Assembly: GCA_017608025.1 (NCBI GenBank)
Contig: JAFCGM010000002.1
Coordinates: forward strand, 6,250-70,249
DNA length: 64,000 bases
Reading direction: 5' to 3'
DNA from: Candidatus Pacearchaeota archaeon
GTDB taxonomy: Archaea; Nanobdellota; Nanobdellia; UBA10117; JABICX01
Program-made: the position numbers and the translations under genes
Shown here: one piece after another, positions 4,812 through 61,671 of the stretch
How the letters are laid out: every line of letters starts with the position of its first letter
Position numbering within the stretch: the stretch's first letter is position 1
Notes under the pieces: model-generated
What the model saw: only the letters and a program-made list of their open reading frames with translations
The model's database searches: none
Told to the model about the DNA's origin: nothing

Positions 4812-4980
4812 TTTTTCTTGATTAATCTTCTTTTTTGAAAAGAAGATTATGCGGAGAGGAGGATTGTGTAACCCTGGGAATCCCCTTTCAAAAAGGGTCT
4901 TCCAACCTTCAAACGCATTGTGGATTGTTTTCTTGATTAATCTTCTTTTTTGAAAAGAAGATTATGCGGAGAGGAGGATT
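4812..4980. repeat. 53-bp direct repeat containing the tRNA-Leu 3' end and its downstream hairpin, flanking a 62-bp insert
   Basis: ttttcttgattaatcttcttttttgaaaagaagattatgcggagaggaggatt at 4812-4864 and 4928-4980. The insert carries the ccctttcaaaaagggtcttccaacc motif. Confidence 0.85.
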
Positions 4981-12514: not shown

Positions 12515-12690
12515 TATCTTTTCAAAAAAGCTCCGCAAAATTCTCGCTTTGCTCGAAATTGAGAAAGATTAGTCTCGGTGCATGATTTTTTTGAGAGCAG
12601 TTTACTTGTCATGGAGCTTTTCAAAAAAGCTCCGCAAAATTCTCGCTTTGCTCGAAATTGAGAAAGATTAGTCTCGGTGCATGATTAAGC
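12515..12690. repeat. Two tandem ~97-bp units, each a family-B hairpin element plus a copy of the last 20-31 bp of secY
   Basis: ...gagcttttcaaaaaagctccgcaaaattctcgctttgctcgaaattgagaaag + attagtctcggtgcatgatttttttgagagcag. The genuine secY 3' end is at 12780-12812. Confidence 0.8.
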
Positions 12691-12779
12691 TTTTTTTAGA
12701 AAAAAGCTTGCAAAAAACAAAAAAATAGTTTTTCTTTGGGAAACTTACACTTTCTTTTTTCTAAAAAGAAAGGGGAGAG

Positions 12780-14171
12780 TTAGTCTCGGTGCATGATTTT
12801 TTTGAGAGCAGGATACATGTCAAATGCATGGTATTTTGCAATTTCCTCATAAAGCTTGTAAATAATCATAACTGTAAGTAAAATTCCTGTTCCACGACTC
12901 AATGCTCCGGAAATGTCTGCTAATGCTGCAAGGAAACCGACAAGCGCTCCACCCATTACAGTTAAAGCAGGAATGTATCTGTTGAGAATTGATTCAAGAA
13001 CGCGAGGGTCTCTCCTAAATCCTGGGATTTGCAATCCAGATGATAGAATTTGCTTTGCCTGAGCATCTGCGCCCATATTGGATGTCTTTACCCAAAGTAT
13101 TGAGAAGATAATTGCGCCAACAACCATAATTGAAATGTAAACCACTGTTTGCAGAATTATTTCTCCTGTTGCTGTGCCTGAAACAATTGAACGAATTATA
13201 TCTGGAGAATGAACCCATTTTACAATTCCAGAAGTTGGTGTTGAACCTTCAAAAGTTCCAAAAATCGGCATTCCTAAATTTTGGAAAAGTCTAGCAAGTA
13301 GCTGTATGTTTGCCAGCAAAGCAGCAATAAGAATAACGGGAATATTAGAACTGTAAATAAATCTTAATGGCCAGCGCATTCCATATCCGCGCACTCGGCC
13401 AAAAGAAAGTGGTATTTCAACTTTCATTGCCTGACCATAAACTGCAATTAAAAACACAACAATTGTCGCTACAATTGCTATTAAAGCAATTAATGCACCA
13501 AGAGAATCTCCCATTCCAAGGGCTTTGAAAATGTAAGGGATTTTTCCTGCAGGAATGTTTGGATTTGTTGGTGATGGCAAAGGATTAAATGCTGCAATGA
13601 AAATCTGTCGAGCAACTCCTCCTGCAATAAACAAGCTTACTCCTGATCCGAAACCCCATTTTTGAACAACCTCATCTAACAAAACTAAAAGGTAACCTCC
13701 AATAATTAGCTGTCCTACTAATCCGAGCTGAAGCCAAAGATACTGACTTGTTCCTGCAAGCTCTGCAGCAGGGGCGAGTCCACCCATAAAAACATAAATA
13801 ACAGCTTCTAAAATTATAAAGCCGATTGTGAAAACTTTTTGCATAGCCTGGAATTTCTTCTTTCCTTCCATAGTTGTAAGGTCTATATTTATTAATCCAG
13901 AACCAGCAAGAAGCTGAAGAATAATAGATGCTGTTACAATAGGACCAATACCTAAAGAAACTATTGAACCAAAACTTGCTCCAAGAATAATTGAAAGAGA
14001 TTCAAATTGAGAAAGAGCGTTTTGTCCAAGGCCTTGAAGAGGGATGTGAAGCAAAACAAAATAGAGTACTAAAACCCCTGCAGTCCATTTAAGCTTTGTT
14101 TTAAAACCAAGCTTTTTTGTCTTTGGGGAAACTATTTCAGGCAAAAATGAGTTTATTAGCTTCCAATTCAT
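12780..14171 (-). CDS. secY: Preprotein translocase subunit SecY
   Basis: 10-TM SecY/Sec61-alpha sequence. Last gene of the spc-like operon. Confidence 0.95.
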   Translation of the reverse strand: MNWKLINSFLPEIVSPKTKKLGFKTKLKWTAGVLVLYFVLLHIPLQGLGQNALSQFESLSIILGASFGSIVSLGIGPIVTASIILQLLAGSGLINIDLTTMEGKKKFQAMQKVFTIGFIILEAVIYVFMGGLAPAAELAGTSQYLWLQLGLVGQLIIGGYLLVLLDEVVQKWGFGSGVSLFIAGGVARQIFIAAFNPLPSPTNPNIPAGKIPYIFKALGMGDSLGALIALIAIVATIVVFLIAVYGQAMKVEIPLSFGRVRGYGMRWPLRFIYSSNIPVILIAALLANIQLLARLFQNLGMPIFGTFEGSTPTSGIVKWVHSPDIIRSIVSGTATGEIILQTVVYISIMVVGAIIFSILWVKTSNMGADAQAKQILSSGLQIPGFRRDPRVLESILNRYIPALTVMGGALVGFLAALADISGALSRGTGILLTVMIIYKLYEEIAKYHAFDMYPALKKIMHRD

Positions 14172-19992: not shown

Positions 19993-20515
19993 TGTTTTTT
20001 CCTCCTTTTGAATCAGTTTTTACTGGCTTTATTGTTTTTGTTGATGATTTTTCAATTGCTTGCTTTCTTGTCCTTCCAGCGAAGGGACCCACGCTGGCGC
20101 TATCTTCGCCTTTGGCTCGATAGCTCTTAGATTGTGATGATTTTTCAATTGCTTGCTTTCTCTTCTTGTCAGATAAATCAATATCAATTATTTGAACATT
20201 TGAAGGAGATATTGGGTATTTAATTACTCGGCCTTCTTCTTTTTTGAATTCTGCTTTTCTGACAAAGATTTTGCTCTTTTTTAGAGACACTTTTTCAACT
20301 TCTCCAATCAATCCTTTGAATTGGCCTCTAAGGATTTTTACCTTGTCTTTAACTCGAATTGGAATGTTTCTTGTATTGTATTTTTTTCGCAAATCTTTTG
20401 AAAGTAAAGCAGACATAAACTTTCTTTTTACATGAAGCGGAGAATTGAATCGATATTTCCTCTGCTTTCTAGGCTGTTTGCTTGACTTCCATTTTTTAGA
20501 CCAAAGAGTTTTCAT
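19985..20515 (-). CDS. rpl24: Ribosomal protein L24 (uL24, KOW) with C-terminal tail carrying an in-frame repeat-element insertion
   Basis: KOW motif KVKILRGQFKG. Tail contains ...EDSASVGPFAGRT... flanked by an exact 27-bp duplication. Start taken at MKTLW. Confidence 0.85.
   Translation of the reverse strand: MKTLWSKKWKSSKQPRKQRKYRFNSPLHVKRKFMSALLSKDLRKKYNTRNIPIRVKDKVKILRGQFKGLIGEVEKVSLKKSKIFVRKAEFKKEEGRVIKYPISPSNVQIIDIDLSDKKRKQAIEKSSQSKSYRAKGEDSASVGPFAGRTRKQAIEKSSTKTIKPVKTDSKGGKNNE
20069..20134 (-). repeat. Family-A short element (66 bp), in frame inside the uL24 tail
   Basis: gtccttCCAGCGaagggacccaCGCTGGcgctatcttcgcctttggctcgatagc, flanked by exact 27-bp direct repeats (20042-20068 / 20135-20161). 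Confidence 0.85.
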
Positions 20516-20520
20516 TTTGA

Positions 20521-20925
20521 TTATAACATTATGCTTGCTGTTTTTGCCACCTGAGACCATCGATATGCAACTTCTTTTGCAATCGGACCTTTAATTAAAG
20601 TACCTTTTGGTGTTCCCAAACGAACATCACGCAAAACAATTCCTGCATTGTCCTCAAATTTAACTTTTGTTCCGTCAGGTCGGGAATATTCCTTTTTTTG
20701 CCGGACAATAACGACAGGAACAACTTGGTGCACCATGTCTGGCTTTCCTGCCTTAACAGCAACAGTAACCAAGTCAGAAACGCCTGCAGAAGCAAGCTTT
20801 CTTGTTCTTGTCTTATAACCGCGAACAGAGATTATCTGTCCAAGTCTTGCTCCTGAATTATCTGCTATGTTAATTACAGTTCCCAAAGGCATGCTTTTTG
20901 ATATTCTTGTTTTTACTGATTTCAT
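20521..20925 (-). CDS. rpl14: Ribosomal protein L14 (uL14)
   Basis: MKSVKTRISKSMPLGTVINIADNSGAR... uL14 sequence. Confidence 0.9.
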   Translation of the reverse strand: MKSVKTRISKSMPLGTVINIADNSGARLGQIISVRGYKTRTRKLASAGVSDLVTVAVKAGKPDMVHQVVPVVIVRQKKEYSRPDGTKVKFEDNAGIVLRDVRLGTPKGTLIKGPIAKEVAYRWSQVAKTASIML

Positions 20926-20936
20926 TTTTTGTCCTC

Positions 20937-21090
20937 TGTCCTTCTGCTGAAGGGACCCACAGCGGTCGTGTAAAGCTTTGCTTCACACAACGGTTTAACT
21001 CTAGTGACTGTCCTTCTGCTGAAGCCACTCATAGCAGTGCTATCTTCAGAAACAAAGTTTCCTTGATAACAGGTATTTAGCATTATAGGA
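20937..21090 (-). repeat. Two tandem family-A elements (A3a 20937-21008, A3b 21009-21090) inserted at the S17 stop / L14 start overlap
   Basis: Flanked by 26-bp direct repeats ttcattttttgtcctctgtccttctg (20921-20946 / 21091-21116) that each contain the ATGA overlap. Confidence 0.8.
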
Positions 21091-21091
21091 T

Positions 21092-21463
21092 TCATTTTTT
21101 GTCCTCTGTCCTTCTGTTTATTGAATCTATTTTTTCATATACAACAAATTTCTTTGTTTTGGAAATTGGCCTGCATTCTGCAATTTTAACTATATCTCCT
21201 TTTTTTGCATTGATATGTTCTGGAAGATGAGCTTTGACTTTTGAGCTTCTTTTTTCATATCTTTCATATTTTGGAATTTTAATGTGCCTTGACCACTTTA
21301 CTGTAACAGTTTTCATCATTTTGTCAGAAACAACTGTTCCTGTAAAGACTCTACCTCTCAGAGGTATGCTTATTTTTGGAGATTTATTATTTTTTTCCAA
21401 TTCATTCACCTTTTGCTTGGTTTTCTCGTGTTTTTTCATTTTTTTATTTTGAGCCGATCCCAT
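21092..21463 (-). CDS. rps17: Ribosomal protein S17 (uS17) with Lys-rich N-terminal extension
   Basis: uS17 OB-fold core. C-terminus ...NRRTEDKK. Confidence 0.85.
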
Positions 21464-21708
21464 GGTCTTTTTTCAATTTCTTCTCCATTTATTTCGACTT
21501 TTTCTTTTGATGGAAGAGTTATTTTAAGAGTTATGTTTTTTTTAAACAGTCTCTTAACTTTGTTTTTTGTTTTTATTTGAAGCGTATGATATGTTTCATT
21601 TACAATCTTGCCTTTTAATCCAAGATTGCACTTGTTTTTTGCCGCTGAAATTTCAGCATTAAGGCCAATTAGTTCGTGCCTTTGAATGTTTTGCTTTGTT
21701 ATTGGCAT
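21436..21708 (-). CDS. rnp1: RNase P protein component 1 (Rpp29/Pop4-like)
   Basis: Small Sm-like basic protein. Sits at the conserved archaeal position between SUI1/L29 and S17. Confidence 0.6.
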
Positions 21709-21709
21709 G

Positions 21710-22015
21710 TTATTTTATTTCAATGCTGTCTTCATTATATCCTAGCTGTATCAAGACTTCCTTTACACGATGCTTTTGGTTTCCTTGAAGTTCAATCACC
21801 TTGTCTTTTATGGTTCCACCGCAAGCAAGTTTTTGCTTTAGTTTTTTTGCAAGATCCTTTGCTTCTTTTTCTTCTGAAACTCCTTCAACAAGAGTTACAG
21901 GCTTTCCATATCTTCTTTGTGTAAGACGAATAGTTATTGTTGCTTGCTCTTTTGCAATTGTTTTGCACATGCAAAGATCTTTTGGAAGTCCGCAGACCGG
22001 ACATATGTCAGTCAT
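21710..22015 (-). CDS. Translation initiation factor SUI1 (aSUI1/eIF1)
   Basis: SUI1 domain ...TLVEGV...KLACGGT... with an N-terminal CPVCG...CMC zinc knuckle. Confidence 0.85.
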   Translation of the reverse strand: MTDICPVCGLPKDLCMCKTIAKEQATITIRLTQRRYGKPVTLVEGVSEEKEAKDLAKKLKQKLACGGTIKDKVIELQGNQKHRVKEVLIQLGYNEDSIEIK

Positions 22016-22221
22016 TATTTGTTTTTTACCTCCGTATTTTTTATGAACATTAACCTAGCAATAGTTTTTCGTATCTCACGAATTCTCCCGGCATTTTCCG
22101 GAGTTGCTCCAGCACTTATTTGGGAATTCAGCTTAAGTACTTCTTTTCGCAATTCCTCTATTTTTGAATCAATTTCCTTTGAACTCATTTTTCTTGCATC
22201 TTTTGCTCTGATTATTGCCAT
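22015..22221 (-). CDS. rpl29: Ribosomal protein L29 (uL29)
   Basis: MAIIRAKDARKMSSKEIDSKIEELRKEVLKL. The 14 upstream codons in the ORF track are the repeat element, not protein. Confidence 0.85.
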   Translation of the reverse strand: MAIIRAKDARKMSSKEIDSKIEELRKEVLKLNSQISAGATPENAGRIREIRKTIARLMFIKNTEVKNK

Positions 22222-22303
22222 TGTCCTTCTGCTGAAGGGACCCACAGCAGCTCTACCGAGCAAAGCTCGATAGCGCGAATGGATTCCTTAGTTTTTTTCC
22301 TCC
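22222..22303 (-). repeat. Family-A full-length element (A4) occupying the whole S3-L29 junction
   Basis: Minus-sense: GGAGGaaaaaaaCTAAGGAAtccatTCGCGCTATCgagctttgctcggtagagctgctGTGGGTCCCTTCagcaGAAGGACA then ATG. Its first 16 nt encode the S3 C-terminus and stop. Confidence 0.85.
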
Positions 22304-23124
22304 TTTTTAGATTTGGGTTTTGATTTTTTGGTTTTTTCTTCAGATTTCTTTTCTTCTTTTTTTGTTTCTGATATTTTTGCTGGTTTTGATTTTTCTTTCT
22401 CAACTTCCTTAGATTTTGCTGATTTTGCTGATTTTGCTGATTTTTCAGCTTGATTTTCAGCTTCTTTAGCAGAGATTTCCTCTTTTGAAATGAGGTTTCC
22501 TTTTTCATCTACCTCTTCAACATGAATTGTTTTGAACTTGACTTTGTCTGGAAGCGGAGTATTTGGAAGCATTATCTTAACTTTAATTCCAACTGCTCCG
22601 GACTTTGTATTTGCAACCATTGTTGCTGAATCAACAAGGTCTTGAGCTACATGTCCACATTTCTTCATATATCCATTATAAAATCTCCAAACCCGGGATC
22701 TCTGGCTTGGAACTTTTCCAGATATTTTTATTTCGCAACCCATTGCTCCTGCTTTCATTACATTTGAAAGGCTGTTATATGAAATAGGTTTAAATCTTCG
22801 GATTCCGAAATTTTCAAGTTTGAATAATATGTTTCTTGCAATTACTTTTGCATTTAAGTTAGGTTCCTGAATTTCACGAACTTCTATTTGAGGATTTTCA
22901 AGCTTAAAAGTATTTTTTAGTATTTTTGTTAGGTCTTTAATTGTTTCTCCGCCCCTTCCAATTATTAATCCAGGTTTTACTGCTTCAATAATTACTTTTT
23001 CTCCAAGAGGTGTTTTTTCAAAATAAATTCCTCCAATTCCTGCTCTGGAACTTATTCTGCTTTCTATTTTGTTCTTTATATACAATTCATTAATCTTGTT
23101 TTTAATAAATTCCCGCTCTATCAT
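22288..23124 (-). CDS. rps3: Ribosomal protein S3 (uS3) with K/E-rich C-terminal tail
   Basis: KH domain GRGGETIKDL. The last 5 codons and the stop lie inside repeat element A4. Confidence 0.9.
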   Translation of the reverse strand: MIEREFIKNKINELYIKNKIESRISSRAGIGGIYFEKTPLGEKVIIEAVKPGLIIGRGGETIKDLTKILKNTFKLENPQIEVREIQEPNLNAKVIARNILFKLENFGIRRFKPISYNSLSNVMKAGAMGCEIKISGKVPSQRSRVWRFYNGYMKKCGHVAQDLVDSATMVANTKSGAVGIKVKIMLPNTPLPDKVKFKTIHVEEVDEKGNLISKEEISAKEAENQAEKSAKSAKSAKSKEVEKEKSKPAKISETKKEEKKSEEKTKKSKPKSKKEEKN

Positions 23125-23606: not shown

Positions 23607-23684
23607 TGTCTTTAAAGCAAAGGACTTGCGCGGGCTCTACCGAGCAAACTCGATAGCGCGAAAGTTCCTTAGTTTTTTGCCTCC
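23607..23684 (-). repeat. Family-A variant element (A5) between S19 and L22, abutting the L22 ATG
   Basis: GGAGGcaaaaaaCTAAGGAACTTTCGCGCTATCgagtttgctcggtagagcccgcgcaagtcctttgctttaaagaca then ATG. Confidence 0.75.
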
Positions 23685-24099: not shown

Positions 24100-24180
24100 T
24101 GTCCTTCTAACAAGTTCTTTGTTTGCTAGCCTCCATTATTATTTTTCTATTTATCATTTTTTTACTTGCCGCGTCCTGCT

Positions 24181-24240
24181 CCCTTTTCTTTAGAAAAGAA
24201 AAGGTAAGTTTCCAAAAGAAACTTTTTTGAGCATTGTTAT
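24181..24240. repeat. Family-E palindromic element inserted between L2 and S19 with ~30-bp target duplication
   Basis: cccttttctttagaaaagaaaaggtaagtttccaaaagaaac, flanked by tatcatttttttacttgccgcgtcctg at 24151-24177 and 24243-24269. Confidence 0.75.
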
Positions 24241-24251
24241 CTATCATTTTT

Positions 24252-24965
24252 TTACTTGCCGCGTCCTGATTTTTTAGCTGAAAGCATTCCAACTTTCTGT
24301 CCTGGTGAACGTCCTTTTCTTCTTACAGTTGTTGATGTAGGTCTGTGCCTTCTGTGCGTTCCACCGTGTGGGTGGTCAACTGCGTTCATTGCAACTCCTT
24401 TTACTTTTGAAACAAGCTTGTTTTTTGCTTTTCTTTTGTGGTATGAGTTTCCAGCCTTTATTAAAGGCTTGTTTTTAACTCCAACTCCTGCAACTACTCC
24501 AAGAGATGCATAGCATTCTGGATTTAGTTTTATTTGCCTTTTTGAAGGCATCTTAATTACAATATTTTTCTTTTCTTTTGCAACCAATATTCCAGAAGCT
24601 CCTGCTGCTCTCAAAAGCTTTCCATTTTGTCCTGGAACTTTTTCTATGTTGAAAACTCTTGCTCCGATAGGAATGTCTTTCAAAGCAATTGCATTTCCAA
24701 CTGAAGAGTCTTTTCCTCCATAAAAAACTGTTTGTCCAACTTTGATTCCCATTGGTGCTGGAAGCAAACACATTTGATCATCTTCATATTTTACTATCAT
24801 TAGTGGAGCTGAGTGTCCTACAGAGTTTACAATATCAATAACCTCCCCCTGAAGTATTTCTTTGGACTTAATTGGGTAACGAATTTCTCCAAAATAACGG
24901 TGGCTTGGAGACTTATATCTAGGTGAGCCTTTTCCTCTTCTTTGCGTAATAAGCCTTTTTCCCAT
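24252..24965 (-). CDS. rpl2: Ribosomal protein L2 (uL2)
   Basis: uL2 sequence with a GGTHRRHRP-type C-terminus. Start taken at MGKRLITQRRGKG. The 11 upstream codons in the ORF track are the repeat element. Confidence 0.9.
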   Translation of the reverse strand: MGKRLITQRRGKGSPRYKSPSHRYFGEIRYPIKSKEILQGEVIDIVNSVGHSAPLMIVKYEDDQMCLLPAPMGIKVGQTVFYGGKDSSVGNAIALKDIPIGARVFNIEKVPGQNGKLLRAAGASGILVAKEKKNIVIKMPSKRQIKLNPECYASLGVVAGVGVKNKPLIKAGNSYHKRKAKNKLVSKVKGVAMNAVDHPHGGTHRRHRPTSTTVRRKGRSPGQKVGMLSAKKSGRGK

Positions 24966-25074
24966 GTCCTTCTCGCGAAGGGACCCACTCAGCCGCAAAA
25001 TCGGCTGGCGCTTTCATCAGGCAGATGTTGGTCTGATGCCTGATAGCGCGAAAGTTCCTTAGTTTTTTGCCTCC
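24966..25074 (-). repeat. Family-A long element (A6, 109 bp) between L23 and L2, abutting the L2 ATG
   Basis: GGAGGcaaaaaaCTAAGGAACTTTCGCGCTATCaggcatcagaccaacatctgcctgatgaaagcgccagccgATTTTGcggctgagtGGGTCCCTTCgcgaGAAGGAC then ATG. Confidence 0.85.
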
Positions 25075-28396: not shown

Positions 28397-28562
28397 GGTT
28401 TTCCTAAAAAGCCTATTCTAATTTAAAAGTGTTTCTATAGAAAAAAATAGAACACTAACTATAATATGTAAAAAAAGTAAGTATCACAAATTGTCAAATC
28501 CATAATTATATCTGCTACAGGATTTATTTTACTTTAAAAAGTGTTTGTATTCCCAAAGCTTT

Positions 28563-28656
28563 CTTAGAAAGAAAGCTTGCAAAGAACAACATTTTTCTTA
28601 GAAAGAAAGCTTGCAAAGAACAACATTTTTCTTAGAAAGAAAGCTTGCAAAAAATT
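28563..28656. repeat. Tandem repeat, 34-bp unit x ~2.8, each unit a palindrome (gctttctt-aga-aagaaagc)
   Basis: cttagaaagaaagcttgcaaagaacaacattttt repeated head-to-tail. Confidence 0.85.
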
Positions 28657-28661
28657 GAAAT

Positions 28662-28714: not shown

Positions 28715-28889
28715 AATAGCTCTTTTTCTTTTCGAGAACATTTTCTTTTTCAAAAGAAAAGGTTCAAGCGAGCCCGGAGGGATTCGATTACCTCGGCAAA
28801 CCCTTTAAAAAAGTGTTTGCATTCCCAAATGTTTTTTTCGAGCGAAGCGAGACTTTTTAGCAACTTGCCTTTTTTTGAAAAAGGCAGAG

Positions 28890-29052
28890 CGAGCCCGGAG
28901 GGATTCGAACCCTCGATCTACAGCTAACTCCAGCACATTAAAGTCTTTTAGCTTATCTTTGCAGGCATCGCATTTTGTTTGCCTGCTCAAAGCGCCAGCC
29001 AATTTTGCGGCTGTAGGAGGCTGTCGCCCTATCCAGACTAGGCTACGGGCCC
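28890..29052 (-). tRNA. tRNA-Arg(CCT) with 88-nt intron at 37/38; the intron carries a family-A repeat module
   Basis: Acceptor GGGCCCG/CGGGCTC. Anticodon stem ACAGC/GCTGT with loop CTCCTA^A. T-arm GAGGG-TTCGAAT-CCCTC. Intron contains CAGCCG-CAAAAT-TGGCTG plus a long stem. Confidence 0.65.
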
Positions 29053-29585
29053 AGTTAAAGAAAACTGCAATATCTTAATAAAACTTGCCAATTCACTACC
29101 GAAATTCTTTAATCTATGTGTTTCTATAAAATTAACATGAAAAACAAACATAGATTAATTGCTTTCTTTTTAGTACTTGTTTTTGTAGTAAGCTTCTTGT
29201 TTTTTGGAAGGATTTTCAGCATAATAGATTCTCTTTCTGATTTAACAGGCGCGGAAATTCTAAAGACTCCAGAAGAAAAGTCAGAAGAATACTCATCTGT
29301 CTGCGAGCAGAAAGACTTTTCAAAAAATTATCGCGACTGTATTTACTGGGAACAGGAAGGGGAAAAACAAGATTCTCTTTCAAAGCTTTCAGACGAAGCA
29401 GTGGAATCTTTTTGCAAAGAGCTATTTAGAATTTACAAAACTTGCGAATAGAAACATTTTTAACTGATATTTTGGGTTTAACTCATATCAGATTTGCTCT
29501 GAGCTAACTTTCGACTGTTGAACAGCAGCGGGATGTCTTTGCCAGCGCTTTTCTGAAAAGAGATATGCATCATGATCTAATGCTC

Positions 29586-29678
29586 CTTCTCGTGAAGGGA
29601 GTTACATGCGGCTGCAAAATCAGCCGGCACTTTCATCAGGCAACAAAGTACGATGCCTGATTGTGATTCACGAACACA
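29586..29678 (-). repeat. Family-A structured repeat element (copy A7), directly 5' of tRNA-Gly
   Basis: tccttctcgtgaaggga...gcggctg-CAAAAT-cagccg...ttcacgaa. Flanked by a duplicated ~20-bp tRNA-Gly 5' segment (29565-29585 / 29680-29700). Confidence 0.7.
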
Positions 29679-32370: not shown

Positions 32371-32459
32371 AACTTTTGGAAAAAGTTTCATCAAAAACAG
32401 AATCATATTTTTACATTATCTCTTTTCCATATTGATTTTAGTTAAGATTCTTTAGTGCA

Positions 32460-32540
32460 GTCCTTTTAGCTAAGAGACCCACGCTGGCGACAAACATTGG
32501 TTATGAAAAGTCGCATAAGCTCTTAAATTATTTCTTTTTC
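32460..32540 (-). repeat. Degenerate family-A element flanked by diverged ~30-bp direct repeats
   Basis: gtccttttagctaagagacccacgctggcg... between attgattttagttaagattctttagtgca and atgttaattttaactaagactctttggtgca. Confidence 0.5.
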
Positions 32541-32645
32541 ATGTTAATTTTAACTAAGACTCTTTGGTGCATTTTTTGAATAAATGCTTTTTTGTCATCC
32601 ATTTCAGAAGCTTCATAATAAAACAAAAATAAAAATTAAATTTGT

Positions 32646-35894: not shown

Positions 35895-36842
35895 TTATTT
35901 TTTCAGCATTTTCTTTTTTCTTATTCTTCTATAAATGAAGAATCCTGTTACTGCAATTACTGCAAACAAAAAATATATTCCATATGGCGCTGGTTTTTGG
36001 GCTAAACCATATTTGTATAGGTCTTTCTGAGAATACACGCGAATATCTATTGTCTGCTCATCCATGTAACTTCTACTGTTTGCATCAGTATATTCAAGTG
36101 TAAATGGAAGAGTTATTATTTTAGTTTCAGGATTTTTTGAATCTGATTTAAAATAAATGTCAAAAACTGCAGTTTCAAAATCATCTGACTCAAGTTCGCC
36201 AACATAAACTTCGTGCGGTGAAAGAACAATGTATTCATCTGTTTCATCAAGTGTTATTGTCAGGTATTTTGTATTTAGTGAGCCTTTATTTACAATGTTT
36301 GTTGTAATTCTTGATTTCTTGTTAAATGATACAGAATCCAAATCTTCAATTCCCACATCAACCCTTGGCTCTCCACCAGTTTTCACTGTTATTGTCACAG
36401 ATGTTTTTTTCATTTCTTTTTCACATTCGCTGTCGCTACATGAAATAAATTCAAGAGAATAATCTCCTGCTTTTGTGTTCTCATTTACAAAAAGCCTGTA
36501 ATCAAGAAGCTTATTCGAATTTGTTCCGATGATTCCTGTGCTTTTTATTGAATCTTCTCCCGGAACAAGGGAAAACGGATATTCTGGATTTACTTTTATG
36601 TATGCATTATCCAATTGCTCATTTCCAATATTCTGGACAGATATCCAAACGCGCAGAGTGTTGTCTGGCTCAGCAGGAACTGGGTCGTAGTCCTTAAGCA
36701 CAACCTTAACATCTGCATTTTCAGCTACAAGGGCCATTGCCGCAAACGGAACTATTACTAAAATTGTAAAAAGTGCGAAAAGCACTTTAATTGCTTTTTT
36801 CATTTTCAACTCTCCCATCTTTAAGATAAAACACTTTCTCAT
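35895..36842 (-). CDS. Exported protein with C-terminal membrane anchor (ABC-transporter-associated)
   Basis: Signal-like N-terminus, beta-rich body, C-terminal TM helix plus RRIRKKK. Co-transcribed with the permease and ATPase. Confidence 0.4.
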   Translation of the reverse strand: MRKCFILKMGELKMKKAIKVLFALFTILVIVPFAAMALVAENADVKVVLKDYDPVPAEPDNTLRVWISVQNIGNEQLDNAYIKVNPEYPFSLVPGEDSIKSTGIIGTNSNKLLDYRLFVNENTKAGDYSLEFISCSDSECEKEMKKTSVTITVKTGGEPRVDVGIEDLDSVSFNKKSRITTNIVNKGSLNTKYLTITLDETDEYIVLSPHEVYVGELESDDFETAVFDIYFKSDSKNPETKIITLPFTLEYTDANSRSYMDEQTIDIRVYSQKDLYKYGLAQKPAPYGIYFLFAVIAVTGFFIYRRIRKKKMLKK

Positions 36843-39009
36843 CTCGAGCTAATTTTTCGAAACGAGAATCGTGAGTTACGATTATTAATGTCTTATTTTT
36901 GTTTTTCCACAAATCAATTAAAATCTTCACAATCTTTTTTCCTGTTTTTGAATCAAGATTTCCTGTTGGCTCATCAGCAAGAATTATTTCTGGATCGTTT
37001 GCAAGAGAGCGGGCAATTGCAACTCTTTGTTGCTCTCCGCCAGACATTTCAGAAGGAAGATGATTTTTTCTGTGCTCAAGGCCAACTATATCCAAAAGCT
37101 CTGATGCTCTTTTAATTCGCTCTTCTTTAGATATATTCTGAAAGACCATTGTAAGAGCAACATTTTCAATTGCAGTAAGGCTTTGAATCAAGTTGAATTT
37201 CTGAAATACAAATCCTATTTTGCTTCCACGAATTTGTGCAAGCTCTGACTCTTCAAGAGAGGAAATGTCTTTTCCATTAAGATATATTTTGCCTTTTGTT
37301 GGAACATCAAGGCATCCAATCATGTTCATTGCTGTAGAATTATGAACAATAAACTCATTTGCTATAAAATTATCTGCACCAGGAACAGTTATGTCATAAA
37401 CTGTTGTCTTTTTATTTATTTTTTTGACTGCAATAACCTTATCCCAAAAAATATCTGAGTCGATTAACGCAGAAAGTTTATCTGTATTGATTTTGTTTTC
37501 TGAAAGAAGATTATTAATCAATTTTAATTTATTCACTGAAGGATTAATTCTTTTAGACTCATATGGATTAAGAACTTTATGAATTCTTCTTGATACTTTT
37601 ACTTTAGACTCTCTTCTAACTTTCTGTAATAATTCTCCACAAGGAATTACATCTACATTCGTATTCTCTTTGTTTTTTAAGTGGCTAAGAAGCCTTTTTT
37701 TCTTATCTGATGAAATAAAGCCAATGTGCTTCTCATACAATTTAAGATTGTTCAATCCAGAAATAGATAATAAATAATAAAATCTATTTGTTTTTTTATT
37801 AAATTTTTTGGGGAGTCTAGAAACAATTCCATACCTCAGAAGCAAATAATTTAATTGAGTGATAAGGTCTTTGCTTGCAAGAGTTATTGCTACTTCTTTT
37901 TTGTTTTTTGAAACATAACCATCACAATCAAACAATGCCCTAATAAAAGCAGCAATTTCTTTGTTAGAACATCTAAAAACAAATTCCGGCAGTTTTATTT
38001 TTCTTGATTTAAGATTTAGAGGAAAATTAAATATTTTATTGAAAAAAATAAGTAAGACCTTATTATTAACAGCTAATCTTGTATCCATAAATTTTTTTGC
38101 ATCAACTTCAAAAATTCGATTTACTAAATAAGAAAATCTCTCATTTATTTTTGGGTCTAAATTTGTAAATTTTATTCCATCCTTATCTAAATTTCCATCT
38201 CCTGCAATAAAGCCATATAGCTCCATTAAATCTTTAGAAATCTTTTTCGGCATTCTTACTTTATTGTGCGAACCTGCAGGAGTTATATAAAAATTACACT
38301 TATATTCAGAAATATCTGTACCACAGTAATCCATAATTTTCTTAAAATTCTCCAATGAAATATTATTATTATGTTTCCAAGCATCATAACTAAAGTAATT
38401 AAATTTCAGTTTCTTGCATAATTCCTTTCCAGAAATCTTTGAATTTTTGAGAAGTTTTCGGATTAATTTGCTTGAATCAAAGAGATATAATCTTTTGTTT
38501 GCACTTGCAAGTTTTAGCAAATCAATTTCTTGTTTTTTTGGTTTTGTATTTATTTTTCTTGCTGTGGCAACAAAAATTCCTTTTTTAAGATTTGTTGCGC
38601 GAATTTCACTGAAGCCATTAGAATCTAAAGTGAAAAAGGGATGTTCTGGAGTACTTACTATTTTTTTGCCTGAAGAAGTTGTAATTTCATAAATCTGATT
38701 CGCTTCTCGTTTATAAAAATCAGAGACTCTGAAAGGTTTAATTTTATTGGATTTTCTATCTAATGCAAGAACTTTATATTTCTTATATTTTCTTTCAAAA
38801 TCTTTTAGATTTATTAAAGAGCCATCTTCCAAAAACAATTTAGTGTCTCCAGTAAGGCATTTTCCACTGCCTGATGGGCCCATTATAACAACAAAATCTC
38901 CTTGATTTACTTTAAGGCTTAGGCCTCGGAGTGCTGGAACTTCCACTGCACCCATTTTATAAATCTTCCAAGCATCTTTGATTTTAATAAGTGTTTTTGA
39001 GGAAGTCAT
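36787..39009 (-). CDS. ABC transporter ATP-binding protein (MacB/LolD-type) interrupted by a 507-aa intein
   Basis: Extein N-part ends GPSGSGK, then intein CLTGDTK...IVHN, then extein resumes [16 protein letters not shown]-like SGGEQQR, Walker B ILADEPT and H-loop all present. Confidence 0.85.
37339..38859 (-). other. Intein with LAGLIDADG homing-endonuclease domain, inserted in the Walker A P-loop (GSGK^ST)
   Basis: Block A Cys1 (CLTGDTKL), LAGLIDADG pair [11 protein letters not shown] / [12 protein letters not shown], terminal HN followed by +1 Ser. Confidence 0.8.
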
Positions 39010-41950: not shown

Positions 41951-42937
41951 TTAAAACGCCTGTTTATAGTCAGGAGCGTCTCTTGGCGAAAAATCAATCT
42001 CAATATCAAAAGAAAAAATAGCTTTCACCAAAATACAAATATTATAAACCAAACATTTCAAATACAATTCATTTACTTGAGATTCAAAGTTCTTAAAATA
42101 TAATTTAGCACCAAACTTACGCTTTAATGCACTGAAGCTTGCTTCTACATTAGACCTTTTGTGATAGTGCTTATAGAATTTACTTCTATTCTTACGGAAC
42201 AGTTCCAATGAAGTTTTCCAAACACCGCTTTTTCTCTTCATTCCACAATTACTTCTGAAAGGAATATATGGAACGCCACCATAATGATGAACCGTCTCTA
42301 AATTATGCCTAGAAGAATATGCTTTATCTCCTAATACTTCATCAATCTTGAAATTCTCAGCAGTTCTTGAAACTAACTTATCAAATTCAGGAGAATCATG
42401 ACATTCACCTGTAGTAATTTCAAGAGAAGTAATTACATTCGTAAAAATCCCACACATTGCATGACATTTAACAAATTTATGCCTGTCATTATATCCGACT
42501 CTTGAATCAAACCATCTCTCATAACTATTAGTTGAGAATCCAGTCGAATCAACTGCAAACCTAGTCTCCAAGTATTTCAAAGGCATAGCAGACATCATAA
42601 GTAAATAATTCAATGTTGGGGTCAAAGATTTTCTTCTCATGTAGTCCGTAACAGAAGAATGATGTGGGACTTTTTTAATATATCCCATATCTTTGAGAAA
42701 CCATAATTGAGATGTAAGTGTTCTTGAAGGCATCCCAAAATATAACTTCATAGCTAGGCAGAAGATTACATCCTTTTGATTGTGCATTGGACGACCTTTT
42801 TTCTTTATTGGTTCCGATACAGTTTCATCCAATAGATTTCTGAGGATTTCAACAAAGAGTCTACCTTCCTTAGTTTGCGCTTTATTGTAGGAAGTCCAGT
42901 CTCTATCTTTTGTGAATTCTTTAATTTTTGATTGCAT
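41951..42937 (-). mobile_element. IS5/IS4-superfamily DDE transposase gene (IS ends not resolved)
   Basis: DDE_Tnp_1-like blocks FAVDSTGF, LGDKAYSS, EASFSALKRKFG. Confidence 0.7.
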
Positions 42938-46155: not shown

Positions 46156-46860
46156 TCAAAGCTGGTTAAAGCATCTCTTGAAGTTCTTTTCGATCTGTTC
46201 CTCAACATCTTCTGGGGAGAACTTCTTTATTCTGGCAATCTCCCTAATTACTTTTTTTATGCTTGTTTTTGGGTTGTCTGTTATATACGGGAAATCTGTT
46301 TCTGTTAAGATTCGCGAAAGAGGAACTATTTCAACTAGCTTCTTAACTTCTGGATACTTGAAGATGAAAGTGTTGATTGAAAAGTAGAATTTAGACTTTA
46401 TGTCTTCAATTAATTCTGGGTTTCCTGTGTATGAATGAATTACTGCCTTTCCATTATAATTTTTAAGCATTTTTGCAACTACTCCTTCTGCCTGCCTGCA
46501 GTGTATAATCACTGGCTTGTTTATCTGCTTTGCAAGCTTCAGAATTTCGCTGAAGTATTTTTTGTGCACAGGCCTTTCTGTTTTTGATGAATATTTATAG
46601 TCAAGCCCTACTTCGCCGACTGCGACTATTTTGTTTTTTTTATTTTTTATTTCTTCAAACTCGGCATAAATTTCCTTTTCAAGATATTCGGAAAATCTTG
46701 TTGGATGGAAACCGATTGCTGCAAAAACATTTTCATATTTTTCAGAAAATTTTAGAACTTCTTTATTTGACTCTGGGTCAAGACCGTTTACTATTACAGG
46801 AATGTTCTTGTATTTTTTAAAATCTTTTTCTTTTGCATGTGAATGTGCGTCGTATAGCAT
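46156..46860 (-). CDS. tatD: TatD-family deoxyribonuclease/hydrolase
   Basis: MLYDAHSHA..., HCRQAEG, VIHSYTG and TETDFPYI TatD motifs. The upstream extension in the ORF track is repeat-derived. Confidence 0.8.
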   Translation of the reverse strand: MLYDAHSHAKEKDFKKYKNIPVIVNGLDPESNKEVLKFSEKYENVFAAIGFHPTRFSEYLEKEIYAEFEEIKNKKNKIVAVGEVGLDYKYSSKTERPVHKKYFSEILKLAKQINKPVIIHCRQAEGVVAKMLKNYNGKAVIHSYTGNPELIEDIKSKFYFSINTFIFKYPEVKKLVEIVPLSRILTETDFPYITDNPKTSIKKVIREIARIKKFSPEDVEEQIEKNFKRCFNQL

Positions 46861-46914
46861 TACACAATAACCTCGATTATTACTCTTATTAATGAGTAAT
46901 GTATGTACCAGTCC

Positions 46915-46980
46915 TTCTAGCCAAGGGACACAAGCTGGTCGTGTACAGCAGAGCTGCACACAACTTAAACCTTAATCTCA
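46915..46980 (-). repeat. Family-A short element (66 bp) flanked by 39-bp direct repeats
   Basis: ttctagccaagggacacaagctggtcgtgtacagcagagctgcacacaac... between attattactcttRttaatgagtaatgtatgtaccagtcc copies at 46876 and 46981. Confidence 0.7.
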
Positions 46981-47019
46981 ATTATTACTCTTGTTAATGA
47001 GTAATGTATGTACCAGTCC

Positions 47020-47078
47020 GTTTCGCCCGGACTGTGCGAAAGCGCATTGCTTCGCAATGCACTATACTTTTATTTCAG
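47020..47078. repeat. Family-C structured element (copy 1), nested next to the family-A copy
   Basis: gtccg-tttcgcc-cggac hairpin plus gcgcattgc-ttc-gcaatgcac hairpin. 96 bp between flanking repeat copies. Confidence 0.65.
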
Positions 47079-47832
47079 TTATTACTCTTGTTAATGAATG
47101 ATGTACATACCATTCAAACTCATTTATTACATTATATTTTGATAGGTCTAATTTAAGGGTTTTGGGTCGAATGAAAATTATCTTGTGATTTTTCTTCACG
47201 ATTTTATGTGCTTCTTCTAAAAAAGAGTTGTAAAGAGTTTTTATTTTTTTGCCGGCGAGAGTCGAGCTTTTTCCATATGGAGGATCGCAAACAATTGCTT
47301 CAATTTTATCAGAGAACAATGAAGATATGTTTGTAGCATCTCCAATAATCACCTGCCAATCTTTTCCTTCCCTTATGTTATATTTATCAGAATAAAATCT
47401 AAGATTGGTTTTGGAAGCTTGTGCAGCTTTCCATTTAATATCTATTCCTATTCCTTTAATTCCAAGAATAGCACTTTCCAAAATAATAGAACCTGTTCCG
47501 CAAAAGGGATCTACAATTTGATTCTTAGCTTCAGACAAGTTAATTAAAAGACGGGCAAGCTTTGGTTTTAGTGCTGTTGGATGAAATGCTGGCTTTTTCT
47601 GAGGTTCTCGGTCCAGAAACTGACCAGATTTTCTTTCCCATATGCAATAATCATTTAAGTAAGCTTTTTTTATTCCTGCGCTTTTTACACACAAATCAAT
47701 TATTTTCTTAGAAGGAATTTTTTTGCTGAAAAATACATAATTTTCTTTTAATTTAGAATTAACATTAAAAAGGATATCAACCTCCCGCTTAAATGCGGAC
47801 AGGTTTTCTCCAGAAATTCTCAGCTTAATCAT
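47062..47832 (-). CDS. tRNA (guanine-N2)-methyltransferase, Trm11/Trm-G10-like
   Basis: DPFCGTGS (motif I) and DPPYG (motif IV). Confidence 0.6.
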   Translation of the reverse strand: MIKLRISGENLSAFKREVDILFNVNSKLKENYVFFSKKIPSKKIIDLCVKSAGIKKAYLNDYCIWERKSGQFLDREPQKKPAFHPTALKPKLARLLINLSEAKNQIVDPFCGTGSIILESAILGIKGIGIDIKWKAAQASKTNLRFYSDKYNIREGKDWQVIIGDATNISSLFSDKIEAIVCDPPYGKSSTLAGKKIKTLYNSFLEEAHKIVKKNHKIIFIRPKTLKLDLSKYNVINEFEWYVHHSLTRVITEIKV

Positions 47833-49748: not shown

Positions 49749-49873
49749 TTTTTCTCCTTATTTTCAATTACTTTTAAAGAGTATTTAAAAGCTTTTCTCT
49801 CCCTTTTCTTTAGAAAAGAAAAGGTAAGTTTCCAAAAGAAAACAATTTTAACTCTTACCAATAATTTATTTCC

Positions 49874-51999: not shown

Positions 52000-52328
52000 A
52001 ATCTGGAAAAAAAATTGCAAAAGAAAGAATTAACATTCTTTTTCGAGAAGCTGAAAAAATTTTTAATGAAAATCCTGCTCTTTCAAAAAGATATGTTTTT
52101 ATTGCAAGAAAAATCGCTATGAAAAGCAATATAAAACTAAGTTCTGAGCAGAAAAGAAAAGTATGCAAAAAGTGCAGGGCTTTTCTTTTTCCTGGAAAAA
52201 ACTGTATTGTTCGAACAAATTCAAAAACAAAATCTGTTGAATATCTTTGCAAGGATTGTGGAAATAAAAATCGATACGGATATTCTAAAGAAAAAAGTTC
52301 TTTGAGAAGGCGCTCGCTGAAAGAATAA
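51996..52328 (+). CDS. rnp4: RNase P protein subunit Rpp21 (Rpr2)
   Basis: CKKCRAFLFPGKNCIVR...CKDCG zinc ribbon with a basic N-terminus. Confidence 0.8.
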   Translation: MKSGKKIAKERINILFREAEKIFNENPALSKRYVFIARKIAMKSNIKLSSEQKRKVCKKCRAFLFPGKNCIVRTNSKTKSVEYLCKDCGNKNRYGYSKEKSSLRRRSLKE

Positions 52329-61604: not shown

Positions 61605-61671
61605 CTCTTCTCACATAATTGTCAAGTGACAGCGAGATGTTTTTTTGCTAGTTTTTTCTGAAAAAAAGCTG

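What the first reader, a model, noticed from the sequence alone, without database searches (positions are those of the whole stretch)
20921..21116. Tandem element pair inserted exactly at the S17-stop / L14-start ATGA overlap, with both gene ends regenerated by a 26-bp duplication
ttcattttttgtcctctgtccttctg occurs at 20921-20946, carrying the L14 ATG, and at 21091-21116, carrying the S17 TGA. Between them lie 144 bp made of two family-A elements. Natively S17 ends ...aac aga agg aca gag gac aaa aaa tga, so the element terminus CAGAAGGACA is identical to native S17 coding sequence. Either the element originated from this junction or it inserts by microhomology at (C)AGAAGGACA-like sites. The insertion uncouples translationally coupled genes while leaving both intact.
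Basis: seen in the sequence. Interest (0 to 1): 0.8.

Follow-up and report, generated by a model that had tools for sequence, protein, structure and literature searches.

The report
Repeat insertion splitting S17/L14 junction
Two copies of a small hairpin-forming repeat recently landed exactly on the overlapping stop/start of two essential ribosomal protein genes in a DPANN-type archaeon; a 26-base copy of the target rebuilt both gene ends, and this is one of at least ten local insertions in the window that each add about 105 bases, which points to an insertion mechanism not yet described.

Summary
An exact 26-nt direct repeat (20921-20946 and 21091-21116) flanks 144 nt made of two family-A elements, between intact S17 and L14 genes on the minus strand. 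Three related genomes have S17 and L14 overlapping with no spacer, so this is an insertion.

- The family is older than this junction: a relative carries a copy between S19 and L22.
- The other repeat-flanked copies show no AGAAGGAC microhomology at their targets.
- The genes are probably not uncoupled. The duplication creates a 57-codon ORF whose start overlaps the S17 stop and whose stop overlaps the L14 start, which could relay translation as described for mycobacterial MIRUs.

The wider result is new. At least ten other short inserts in the window, from unrelated repeat families, are flanked by target duplications of 19-83 nt. Insert plus duplication is nearly constant at 105 ± 11 nt (r = -0.90). 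Two family-A copies sit in frame inside the L24 and L32e tails.

I favour a host DNA-synthesis template switch that adds a patch of roughly 100 nt. That mechanism is inferred, not shown. No transposase, reverse transcriptase or Cas1 that could explain it lies in the window.

The parts
21092..21463 (-). S17 (uS17) gene, intact; its last 8 codons and TGA lie in the S17-proximal repeat copy
   Evidence: ORF; 1026 S17 homologues, PF00366; alignment
20521..20925 (-). L14 (uL14) gene, intact, 134 aa as in relatives
   Evidence: ORF; the L14 genes of L003, L005 and L008 are also 134 aa
21091..21116 (.). S17-proximal copy of the 26-nt target duplication. On the minus strand it reads CAGAAGGACAGAGGACAAAAAATGAA: the S17 tail and TGA, plus a duplicated ribosome-binding site and ATG that start ORF57
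20921..20946 (.). L14-proximal copy of the 26-nt target duplication: the working ribosome-binding site and ATG of L14, plus the duplicated S17 tail and TGA that end ORF57
20947..21090 (-). 144-nt insert between the two repeat copies
   Evidence: absent from relatives
21008..21090 (-). Family-A unit 1 (S17-proximal, 83 nt), a variant 3' module ending CAGAAGGACAG at 21018-21008
   Evidence: profile hit 21039-21008, E = 3.8e-6; 38 nt at 89% identity to the L32e copy and 20 nt identical to the 54279 copy
20936..21007 (-). Family-A unit 2 (L14-proximal, 72 nt): a 5' hairpin GUUGUGUGAAGC-AAA-GCUUUACACGAC, then the 3' module. Its last 11 nt are the first 11 nt of the repeat copy
   Evidence: profile hit 20966-20936, E = 7.5e-9; hairpin 97% identical over 37 nt to 54344-54379; fold
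20922..21095 (-). 57-codon bridging ORF (MNPIML...AVGPFSRRTEDKK). Its ATG overlaps the S17 TGA and its TGA overlaps the L14 ATG
   Evidence: called as a protein in public annotation of the same 109-kb contig (P0121); no homologues elsewhere
20936..20966 (-). Conserved 3' module: hairpin P1 (variable stem, conserved loop UGGGUCCCUU) or the alternative hairpin P2 (GUCCCUUC/GAAGGAC), which pairs the loop with the tail in front of the start codon
   Evidence: alignment A3; 5 of 6 P1 pairs show compensatory changes and the covariation score exceeds 500/500 shuffles
20042..20161 (-). Second recent family-A insertion: a 66-nt element with a 27-nt exact target duplication, in frame in the L24 C-terminal tail
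   Evidence: segment absent from relatives' L24
16928..17050 (-). Third recent family-A insertion: a 63-nt element with a 30-nt exact target duplication, in frame in the L32e C-terminal tail
   Evidence: segment absent from the relative's L32e
24152..24268 (-). Same architecture with an unrelated insert: 63 nt (20 nt not found elsewhere in the window plus a 43-nt hairpin repeat identical to 49799-49841) with a 27-nt duplication that includes the L2 stop codon
22221..22287 (-). Resident family-A copy filling the S3 stop (TAA) to L29 ATG spacer; no flanking repeat
23607..23668 (-). Resident, diverged family-A copy in the S19-L22 spacer, the position that is also occupied in relative L003
24964..25061 (-). 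Resident family-A copy filling the L23 stop to L2 ATG spacer
32411..32571 (-). Older family-A insertion: 63 nt flanked by a decayed 49-nt duplication (81% identical), period 112
46860..47124 (-). Older tandem array of family-A-like units with 55-nt decayed duplications, periods 105 and 97

Best explanation
WHAT IT IS (shown). The 170 extra nucleotides at the S17/L14 junction are a recent duplicative insertion. They consist of two units of a lineage-specific, non-coding, hairpin-forming repeat (family A, about 63-100 nt) plus a second copy of 26 nt of target. Family A normally sits in the sense orientation as an intercistronic spacer: stop TAA, then GGAAC...GAAGGACA, then ATG. It does so in this Woesearchaeota-like archaeon and in at least one relative. 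The duplicated 26 nt contain the S17 tail and TGA together with the L14 ribosome-binding site and ATG. Both essential genes are therefore rebuilt.

CONSEQUENCE (structure shown, function inferred). The insert is spanned by a 57-codon ORF joined to both genes by ATGA overlaps. Termination-reinitiation coupling could pass from S17 to ORF57 to L14.

HOW IT GOT THERE (inferred, about 0.4). The event belongs to a genome-wide class in which a patch of about 105 nt is added. The patch consists of x nt copied from elsewhere (16-100 nt, usually a hairpin module) followed by 105 minus x nt re-copied from the target (19-83 nt). I read this as a template switch during DNA synthesis: the nascent strand leaves the target, copies part of a donor repeat, then re-anneals upstream of where it left, so that it copies that stretch of target a second time. 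At this locus it would have re-annealed on the 11 nt (CAGAAGGACAG) shared by the donor end and the S17 tail. The total tract length would be limited to roughly the size of an archaeal Okazaki fragment. The 170 nt here most likely reflect two such events, of 98 and 72 nt.

The confidence of 0.55 is for the whole statement: about 0.9 for the insertion, duplication and family assignment, about 0.5 for the relay of translational coupling, and about 0.4 for the template-switch mechanism.
For: Insertion and recency:
- The 26-nt repeat is exact and none is expected by chance.
- Three independent relatives have S17 and L14 overlapping with no spacer.

Family and orientation:
- All 11 significant copies lie in the same sense as the genes on the minus strand.
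- A copy sits in L003 between S19 and L22.
- The P1 stem covaries in 5 of 6 pairs, exceeding 500/500 shuffles.
- The sense strand folds more stably in 8 of 11 copies.

Bridging ORF and free L14 ribosome-binding site. The MIRU precedent is in PMC12548453.

General phenomenon:
- The window holds 14 local exact repeats of at least 20 nt within 400 nt, against 0 in shuffles.
- There are none in about 19 kb of relatives' operons.
- Spacings of exact local repeats cluster at 90-121 nt, with 9 pairs.
- In 10 events other than this one, duplication plus insert is 105.5 ± 11 nt, while the duplication ranges 19-83 nt and the insert 16-100 nt. r = -0.90 and no permutation in 20,000 gave as small a spread.
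- Unrelated inserts share the architecture.
- One insert is composite: 20 nt without a match in the window plus 43 nt of repeat.
- Older copies have decayed duplications of 81-87% identity, so these are real evolutionary events.
- No Cas1, reverse transcriptase, Y1/RAYT or IS1634-type gene is found among the ORFs scanned, only an IS5 transposase.
Against: - No donor copy identical to either unit lies in the window, so the switch points cannot be read directly.
- Apart from this locus and the 46909 array, the junctions show no evident microhomology.
- The two in-gene family-A inserts have nearly the same ends (within about 3 nt; 63 and 66 nt). Four young events have duplications of 26-30 nt. 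Both facts would also fit a dedicated enzyme that cuts the target with a long stagger.
- The 170-nt period here lies outside the 90-121 range unless two events are assumed, and the 72-nt one is short.
- All evidence comes from one metagenome-assembled contig, and no reads could be examined.
- The link to Okazaki fragment size rests on my recollection of archaeal fragment lengths (about 100 nt). It was not tested.
- Five resident copies have no long duplication at all, so a second route of insertion, or complete decay of the duplications, must be assumed.
Confidence: 0.55

Rival explanations
1. A dedicated enzyme acting in trans, such as a transposase or integrase encoded elsewhere in the genome, inserts defined short elements after cutting the two target strands 20-80 bp apart. 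Gap filling then yields the long duplications, as with IS1549/IS1634 or Cas1-Cas2 full-site integration.
For: - Four young events have duplications of 26, 27, 27 and 30 nt.
- Inserts of 62-66 nt recur in four events.
- The family-A ends are reproducible to within about 3 nt.
- IS1549/IS1634 make variable repeats of 8-514 bp by an unknown mechanism (PMC2266710).
- Pyrococcus furiosus Cas1-Cas2 integrates off-target at sites 30-31 bp apart (PMC6698737).
Against: - The inserts are unrelated sequences with no shared termini and no terminal inverted repeats.
- Duplications range from 19 to 83 nt and are inversely tied to insert length. Neither model predicts this.
- Inserts of 62-100 nt are far longer than the 37-bp spacers and pre-spacer used in the P. 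furiosus study.
- No such gene is present among the window ORFs scanned; the only transposase is IS5 family.
Confidence: 0.25
2. RNA-mediated retro-insertion. Transcribed hairpin modules are reverse-transcribed at a nicked target, as for SINEs. A second nick 20-80 nt away gives duplications of variable length, and the RNA 3' end (CAGAAGGACAG) anneals to the S17 tail to prime synthesis.
For: - All copies are in the sense orientation of the local genes on the minus strand.
- The structure favours the sense strand.
- The duplications vary in length.
- At this locus 11 nt are shared between the element's 3' end and the target.
- Inserts carry extra flanking sequence at the 5' side.
Against: - No reverse transcriptase is found among the window ORFs scanned.
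- There is no A-tail or other 3' signature, and no 3' microhomology at the other targets.
- The constant sum of insert and duplication is not predicted.
- About 80% of the window is transcribed from the minus strand by my rough estimate from the ORF map, so the orientation bias is weak evidence.
Confidence: 0.12
3. One reading: the element arose from this junction, or it targets (C)AGAAGGACA-like sites by microhomology.
For: - The duplicated target begins with the element's own 11-nt terminus.
- The duplication in the 46860-47124 array also begins with the element end GGACTGG.
- A lone TTAGAAGGACA-ATG precedes S19.
- Relative L003 has a similar tail and ribosome-binding-site context (AAGACAGAGGTCAAAAATAATG) at another junction. 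The terminus may therefore descend from a captured gene junction.
Against: - The L24, L32e, 5S-flank and tRNA-Gly-flank targets lack the motif.
- The family is present in L003 at S19/L22, while the S17/L14 junction of L003 has no such motif.
Confidence: 0.15
4. Assembly artefact: the repeat-insert-repeat structures are mis-joins in a metagenome assembly, with a period close to read length.
For: The data come from a single MAG contig. The period of about 100 nt is in the range of short-read lengths, and no reads were available.
Against: - Repeat lengths vary from 19 to 83 nt rather than matching a k-mer size.
- Older examples have diverged repeat copies of 81-87% identity, which an assembler cannot produce.
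- Both in-gene inserts are 93 nt and in frame.
- The 170-nt insert is in the one phase that links two ATGA overlaps by an open frame.
- A path through repeat, insert and repeat requires reads that cover both junctions.
Confidence: 0.04
5. Not an insertion but an ancient regulatory spacer of the operon, for example a ribosomal-protein or L7Ae binding site, whose flanks happen to be similar.
For: The 3' module is conserved between two genomes, lies directly before start codons, and has a covarying stem.
Against: - The S17/L14 spacer is absent from all three relatives.
- A 26-nt exact duplication of coding sequence is not explained.
- There is no Rfam match.
- The kink-turn resemblance does not hold in register.
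Confidence: 0.03

Closest known systems
MIRU (mycobacterial interspersed repetitive units)
   Same: Both are short (40-100 bp) repeats found between co-oriented genes of operons, in the gene orientation and sometimes in tandem. MIRUs insert at start codons so that an ORF inside the repeat is coupled to the flanking gene with a 4-nt overlap (PMC12548453; PMC3184786). Here ORF57 has ATGA overlaps at both ends.
   Different: There is no sequence relationship, and the host is an archaeon. MIRU sites show only tetranucleotide direct repeats, against 19-83 nt here. Here the coupling ORF is created by duplication of the target, not carried by the element.
RPE (Rickettsia palindromic elements) and other repeats fused in frame into genes
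   Same: Small palindromic repeats inserted in frame inside protein-coding genes and translated (PMC3184786). Family A sits in frame in the L24 and L32e tails and adds 31 residues to each.
   Different: RPEs are about 105-146 bp, bacterial and unrelated in sequence. To my knowledge they are not described with long target duplications or a constant period.
MITEs and REP/BIME-type hairpin repeats
   Same: Non-autonomous, multi-copy, hairpin-forming and mostly intergenic. Family A is modular, as BOX or BIME elements are.
   Different: Family A has no terminal inverted repeats. Its duplications are 19-83 nt rather than a fixed 2-10 bp. REPs make no duplication and depend on a RAYT gene, which was not seen in the window.
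IS1549/IS1634 insertion sequences
   Same: The only prokaryotic elements I know of that produce long duplications of variable length (8-514 bp), by an unexplained mechanism (PMC2266710).
   Different: Those are 1.5-2 kb autonomous elements with inverted repeats and their own DDE transposase. Here the inserts are 16-100 nt, have no common ends, and have no such transposase nearby.
Off-target full-site integration by CRISPR Cas1-Cas2
   Same: It produces an insert flanked by a duplication of about 30 bp (PMC6698737). Four events here have duplications of 26-30 nt.
   Different: Spacer and repeat lengths are each fixed by the integrase. Here they vary widely and compensate each other. No cas genes or CRISPR array lie in the window.
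Templated insertions by replication template switching (FoSTeS/MMBIR; from my own knowledge)
   Same: An insert copied from elsewhere plus a re-copied stretch of the target, with shared bases at a switch point. At this locus 11 nt are shared.
   Different: This process is described mainly in eukaryotes and E. coli as a rare rearrangement. It is not described as a recurrent process with a tract limit of about 105 nt that spreads particular hairpin repeats.

Membership tests
MITE | Terminal inverted repeats | tested here: not met
   The ends are 5' TAAGGAAC or TAAGAG... and 3' ...GAAGGACA, which are not complementary. No terminal inverted repeat was reported for 20700-21400 or seen in the aligned copies.
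MITE | Short target site duplication of fixed length (2-10 bp) | tested here: not met
   Duplications are 26, 27 and 30 nt (exact) and 20-55 nt (decayed) for family A.
MITE | Small, non-coding, multi-copy | tested here: met
   11 copies of 57-108 nt in 64 kb.
MIRU-like intercistronic repeat (functional analogy only) | Lies between co-oriented genes of an operon, in the gene orientation | tested here: met
   The junctions S17/L14, S3/L29, L23/L2, S19/L22 and ThrRS/PLD all carry copies in the sense orientation.
MIRU-like intercistronic repeat (functional analogy only) | An internal ORF whose start and stop overlap the flanking genes' stop and start by 4 nt | tested here: met
   ORF 21095..20922 overlaps S17 (ends at 21092) and L14 (starts at 20925). 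Translation was not tested.
MIRU-like intercistronic repeat (functional analogy only) | Sequence homology to mycobacterial MIRUs | not tested
   No comparison was run. The host is an archaeon with 33% GC, so membership is not claimed.
REP/RAYT or IS200/IS605-derived hairpin element | Hairpin ends, strict strand bias, insertion without target duplication | tested here: inconclusive
   Hairpins and 11/11 strand bias are met. Five resident copies have no duplication, but six loci have long ones.
REP/RAYT or IS200/IS605-derived hairpin element | Cognate Y1 (HUH) transposase gene in the genome | not testable with these tools
   None was found among the window ORFs scanned. The rest of the genome is not available. 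RAYT genes are reported in some Nanobdellota (bioRxiv 10.64898/2026.05.13.725050).
Cas1-Cas2 off-target integration | Fixed duplication length (the repeat length) and fixed insert length (the spacer length) | tested here: not met
   Duplications are 19-83 nt, inserts 16-100 nt, and the two are inversely correlated.
IS1634/IS1549-type insertion | Element with inverted repeats mobilised by an IS1634-family DDE transposase | tested here: not met
   There are no inverted repeats. The only transposase (41951-42937) is IS5 family at 167.7 bits, and scores 17.4 bits against IS1634 with a cut-off of 100.
Any described RNA family (Rfam 15) | Match to a covariance model | tested here: not met
   There were no matches in 20000-22400 apart from two chance-level ones (E about 8). 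With gathering thresholds the whole window gives only tRNAs and 5S rRNA.
Kink-turn (L7Ae-binding) motif | A 3-nt bulge followed by tandem sheared G.A pairs, in register with both flanking helices | tested here: not met
   The hairpin GCUAUC-GA-GCC-AAA-GGC-GAA-GAUAGC has a 2x3 internal loop (fold). Forcing a Kt-7-like register breaks the outer helix. This was judged by inspection only.

The most novel reading that the evidence does not exclude
This archaeon has a previously undescribed way of inserting DNA. Each event adds a patch of about 105 nt, made of a variable piece of foreign sequence (usually a hairpin repeat) plus a compensating length of re-copied target. The mechanism would be either chimeric Okazaki-sized synthesis tracts or an unknown enzyme with a ruler. 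Because the re-copied target regenerates stop codons, ribosome-binding sites, start codons and tRNA ends, small structured repeats can colonise essential, tightly packed operons. This creates new intercistronic spacers, relay ORFs and protein tails.
Probability: 0.35. Interest if true: 0.85.

Novelty: new variant of a known kind. Interest (0 to 1): 0.66.

Why it matters
Small dispersed repeats are known in bacteria, but how most of them move is not.

- **A quantitative signature.** The insertions here leave a constant period of about 105 nt, with the duplicated target trading off against the insert length. This constrains the mechanism and can be tested in any closely related genomes or read sets.
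- **How an essential operon tolerates insertions.** The long duplication rebuilds both gene ends and creates a bridging ORF. This shows how a translationally coupled ribosomal protein operon can accept insertions.
- **A route to new genome features.** It suggests how new intercistronic RNA structures, small ORFs and C-terminal protein extensions arise in reduced DPANN genomes.
- **A practical warning for annotators.** A spurious 57-aa protein is already in the public annotation, and L24 and L32e each carry 31 extra residues.

Tried and rejected
- **Rfam.** Gathering thresholds on the whole window and permissive thresholds on 20000-22400 found nothing relevant.
- **Pattern scans for relatives.** Exact scans for GTCCTTCNNNNGAAGGGACCCAC gave one high-GC chance hit each in genome contigs and metagenome contigs and none in viral contigs. 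The window's own contig and the L003 genome are evidently not in those collections, so these scans say little about distribution.
- **Peptide search.** A search with the element's translated peptides found only the 57-aa ORF of the same contig.
- **Exact look-up of the window's S17.** It failed. Cluster look-up gave no names.
- **Homologue sampling.** An L22 homologue search found only two relatives above 60% identity, so the lineage is thinly sampled.
- **Kink-turn idea.** Rejected because the register does not fit.
- **Full H-type pseudoknot.** Rejected because P1 and P2 share nucleotides and leave no connecting loop. I treat them as alternative hairpins.
- **IS5 element at 41951-42937.** Its inverted repeats are unrelated to family A.
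- **Promoter and terminator scan.** It uses bacterial consensus sequences and found nothing in the insert on the minus strand. Archaeal promoters were not assessed.
- **GC skew.** It follows coding strand only and gives no replication direction.
- **Bulge-helix-bulge splicing of the in-gene copies.** Considered because a tRNA intron carries a related module, but not tested. The A-rich direct repeats cannot pair with each other.
- **Literature searches.** Searches for long target duplications in archaeal MITEs and for Woesearchaeota repeats found no description of this.
Full report
**Context.** The window (33% GC) carries an archaeal ribosomal protein cluster on the minus strand: L3, L4, L23, L2, S19, L22, S3, L29, SUI1, Rpp29, S17, L14, L24, S4e and onward to SecY. 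S17 homologues carrying a source name are labelled Woesearchaeota or Nanoarchaeota. The nearest is 76% identical.

**Check of the observation.** The 26-mer TTCATTTTTTGTCCTCTGTCCTTCTG occurs exactly twice, at 20921-20946 and 21091-21116. There are no further matches with up to 3 mismatches and none in 100 shuffles.
- In coding orientation the sequence reads ...AATAAA [CAGAAGGACAGAGGACAAAAAATGAA] 144 nt [CAGAAGGACAGAGGACAAAAAATGAA] ATCAGT....
- The first copy ends S17 ([11 protein letters not shown]). The second carries the GAGGA ribosome-binding site and the ATG of L14.
- The 144 nt are two units of one repeat family, in register 72 nt apart. Both are found by a profile of the family's 3' module.

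**It is an insertion.** I recovered the same operon from three independent relatives.
- In L003/L004 and in L005-L007, S17 and L14 overlap by ATGA. In L008/L009 they overlap by 20 nt.
- The L003 junction reads GAAAAAATCGAGGAAAACAAAAAATGAAGTCAGTAAAAAC.
- With one repeat copy and the insert removed, the window reads GAAAAAATAGATTCAATAAACAGAAGGACAGAGGACAAAAAATGAAATCAGTAAAAAC.
- So the ancestral state was a plain ATGA overlap.
- The window's S17 tail has 18 extra nucleotides that include CAGAAGGAC. From the logic of the duplication, that motif was already in the target when the insertion occurred.

**The element family.** Eleven significant copies lie in the window, all in the same orientation, which is the sense of the minus-strand genes.
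- They are modular: variable 5' hairpins followed by a conserved 3' module, NNNNNN-UGGGUCCCUU-NNNNNN-AAGGACA.
- The variable flanks form a stem (P1) with compensatory changes in 5 of 6 pairs. The covariation score is 0.30 against 0.115 in shuffles and exceeds 500/500 shuffles.
- The conserved loop is complementary to the conserved tail (P2). Because P1 and P2 share nucleotides and leave no connecting loop, I read them as alternative hairpins rather than a pseudoknot.
- The sense strand folds more stably in 8 of 11 copies. There is no Rfam match.
- Five 'resident' copies fill a spacer exactly from a stop codon to the next ATG (C-TAA-GGAAC...GAAGGACA-ATG). They lie at S19/L22, S3/L29, L23/L2, upstream of ThrRS, and at ThrRS/PLD. 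None has a flanking repeat.
- Relative L003 has a copy at S19/L22 with the same 3' module directly before the L22 ATG. The family therefore predates this genome and did not arise at the S17/L14 junction.
- The relatives' other junctions are tight.

**Long target duplications are the rule here.**
- Family A in the L24 tail: a 66-nt insert with a 27-nt exact repeat.
- Family A in the L32e tail: a 63-nt insert with a 30-nt exact repeat.
- Both add 93 nt, in frame and in the same reading frame (...GEDSxxVGPFxxRT...). Both segments are missing from relatives' proteins.
- Older copies have decayed repeats: 49 nt at 81% identity around 32460-32522, about 20 nt around 29583-29677, and 55 nt at 87% in the 46860-47124 array.
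- Unrelated inserts show the same architecture. Examples are a 63-nt piece with a 27-nt duplication that contains the L2 stop codon, inserts behind tRNA-Leu (53-nt repeat) and another tRNA (21-nt repeat), and two nested events behind SecY.
- The window has 14 local exact repeats of at least 20 nt, against none in shuffles and none in about 19 kb of relatives' operons.

**The period rule.**
- Spacings of local exact repeats cluster at 90-121 nt, with nine pairs.
- For ten events other than the finding, duplication plus insert is 105.5 ± 11 nt. The duplication spans 19-83 nt and the insert 16-100 nt. r = -0.90, and none of 20,000 permutations gave as small a spread.
- The event list was curated by me after the fact: nested events were resolved by hand.
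- The S17/L14 period of 170 nt fits as 98 + 72, which suggests two events. Because the 11-nt CAGAAGGACAG is present at the element ends and in the target, the split between insert and duplication is ambiguous (26 + 72 or 15 + 83 for the first event).

**Consequences at the locus.**
- The duplication also copies the ribosome-binding site, ATG and TGA.
- A 57-codon ORF (21095..20922) therefore starts on the ATGA that ends S17 and stops on the ATGA that starts L14. This works because 170 = 3n + 2 and the family has an open frame.
- The L14 ribosome-binding site is unpaired in the predicted fold.
- So 'uncoupling' is not the likeliest outcome, although translation of ORF57 is untested.

**Mechanism.**
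- Shown: a duplicative insertion. The architecture is shared by unrelated inserts. There are no inverted repeats. One insert is composite. The period is constant. No candidate enzyme lies in the window; there is only an IS5 transposase.
- Inferred: a host DNA-synthesis template switch that adds a tract of about 100 nt, part donor and part re-copied target. At this locus the 11 shared nucleotides would serve as the return point.
- I put this at about 0.4.
- A dedicated long-stagger integrase or transposase gets about 0.25. Precedents are IS1549/IS1634 with 8-514-bp repeats (PMC2266710) and Cas1-Cas2 off-target sites 30-31 bp apart (PMC6698737).
- Retro-insertion gets about 0.12.
- An assembly artefact is unlikely because the older duplications have diverged and the inserts respect reading frames.

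**Verdict.** The element is a new, lineage-restricted member of the broad class of small structured dispersed repeats, with MIRU and RPE as functional analogues. Its insertion signature appears to be undescribed.

Noticed in passing
window 28890-29052 (-), compared with 24984-25052 and 29604-29668: An intron-containing tRNA gene (163 nt; found by Rfam but not by ARAGORN) carries in its intron the same two-hairpin module as two family-A copies (CAGGCATC...TGCCTG and AAAGCGCCAGCCNATTTTGCGGCTG). The module lies in the opposite genomic orientation.
   Followed up: partly
window 4813-4980 and 28767-28908: The 3' ends of two tRNA genes are duplicated 115 and 121 nt downstream (53-nt and 21-nt exact repeats), with 62- and 100-nt hairpin-module inserts between. 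This is the same repeat-insert-repeat architecture as the finding and resembles miniature att sites.
   Followed up: partly
window 12518-12811: There are three copies of the SecY 3' end (32, 19 and 32 nt) behind the gene. They resolve into two nested events with periods of 99 and 112 nt.
   Followed up: partly
window 24100-24112 (-): A lone TTAGAAGGACA-ATG, the family-A 3' terminus, lies directly before the S19 start without the rest of the element. It may be a decayed copy or a motif related to the ribosome-binding site.
   Followed up: no
window 36787-39009 (-): A 740-aa ABC/SMC-type ATPase is interrupted by an intein with a LAGLIDADG homing endonuclease domain.
   Followed up: no
window 41951-42937 (-): An IS5-family transposase gene (NF033579, 167.7 bits) with imperfect inverted repeats at about 41841 and 43211. 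It is unrelated to family A.
   Followed up: partly
window 28560-28661 and 52317-52496: Head-to-tail tandem repeats of 34 nt (3 copies) and 79 nt (2.3 copies, exact) lie in intergenic regions made of the same pool of hairpin modules.
   Followed up: no
L003 429-1288: In the closest relative's contig the L22 ORF is 217 aa (161 aa in the window) and is followed directly by L29. No S3 gene lies between them. This may be a deletion, a fusion or a mis-assembly.
   Followed up: no
window 60150-62079 (-): RtcB RNA ligase and its activator archease are adjacent. This is relevant only because many intron-containing tRNAs and structured repeats are present.
   Followed up: no
window 22015-22287 (-): The S3 stop codon, the 66-nt resident element and the L29 ATG are all in one reading frame with no other stop. 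Readthrough of the TAA would fuse S3 to L29. Gene callers may start L29 at an upstream TTG inside the element.
   Followed up: no
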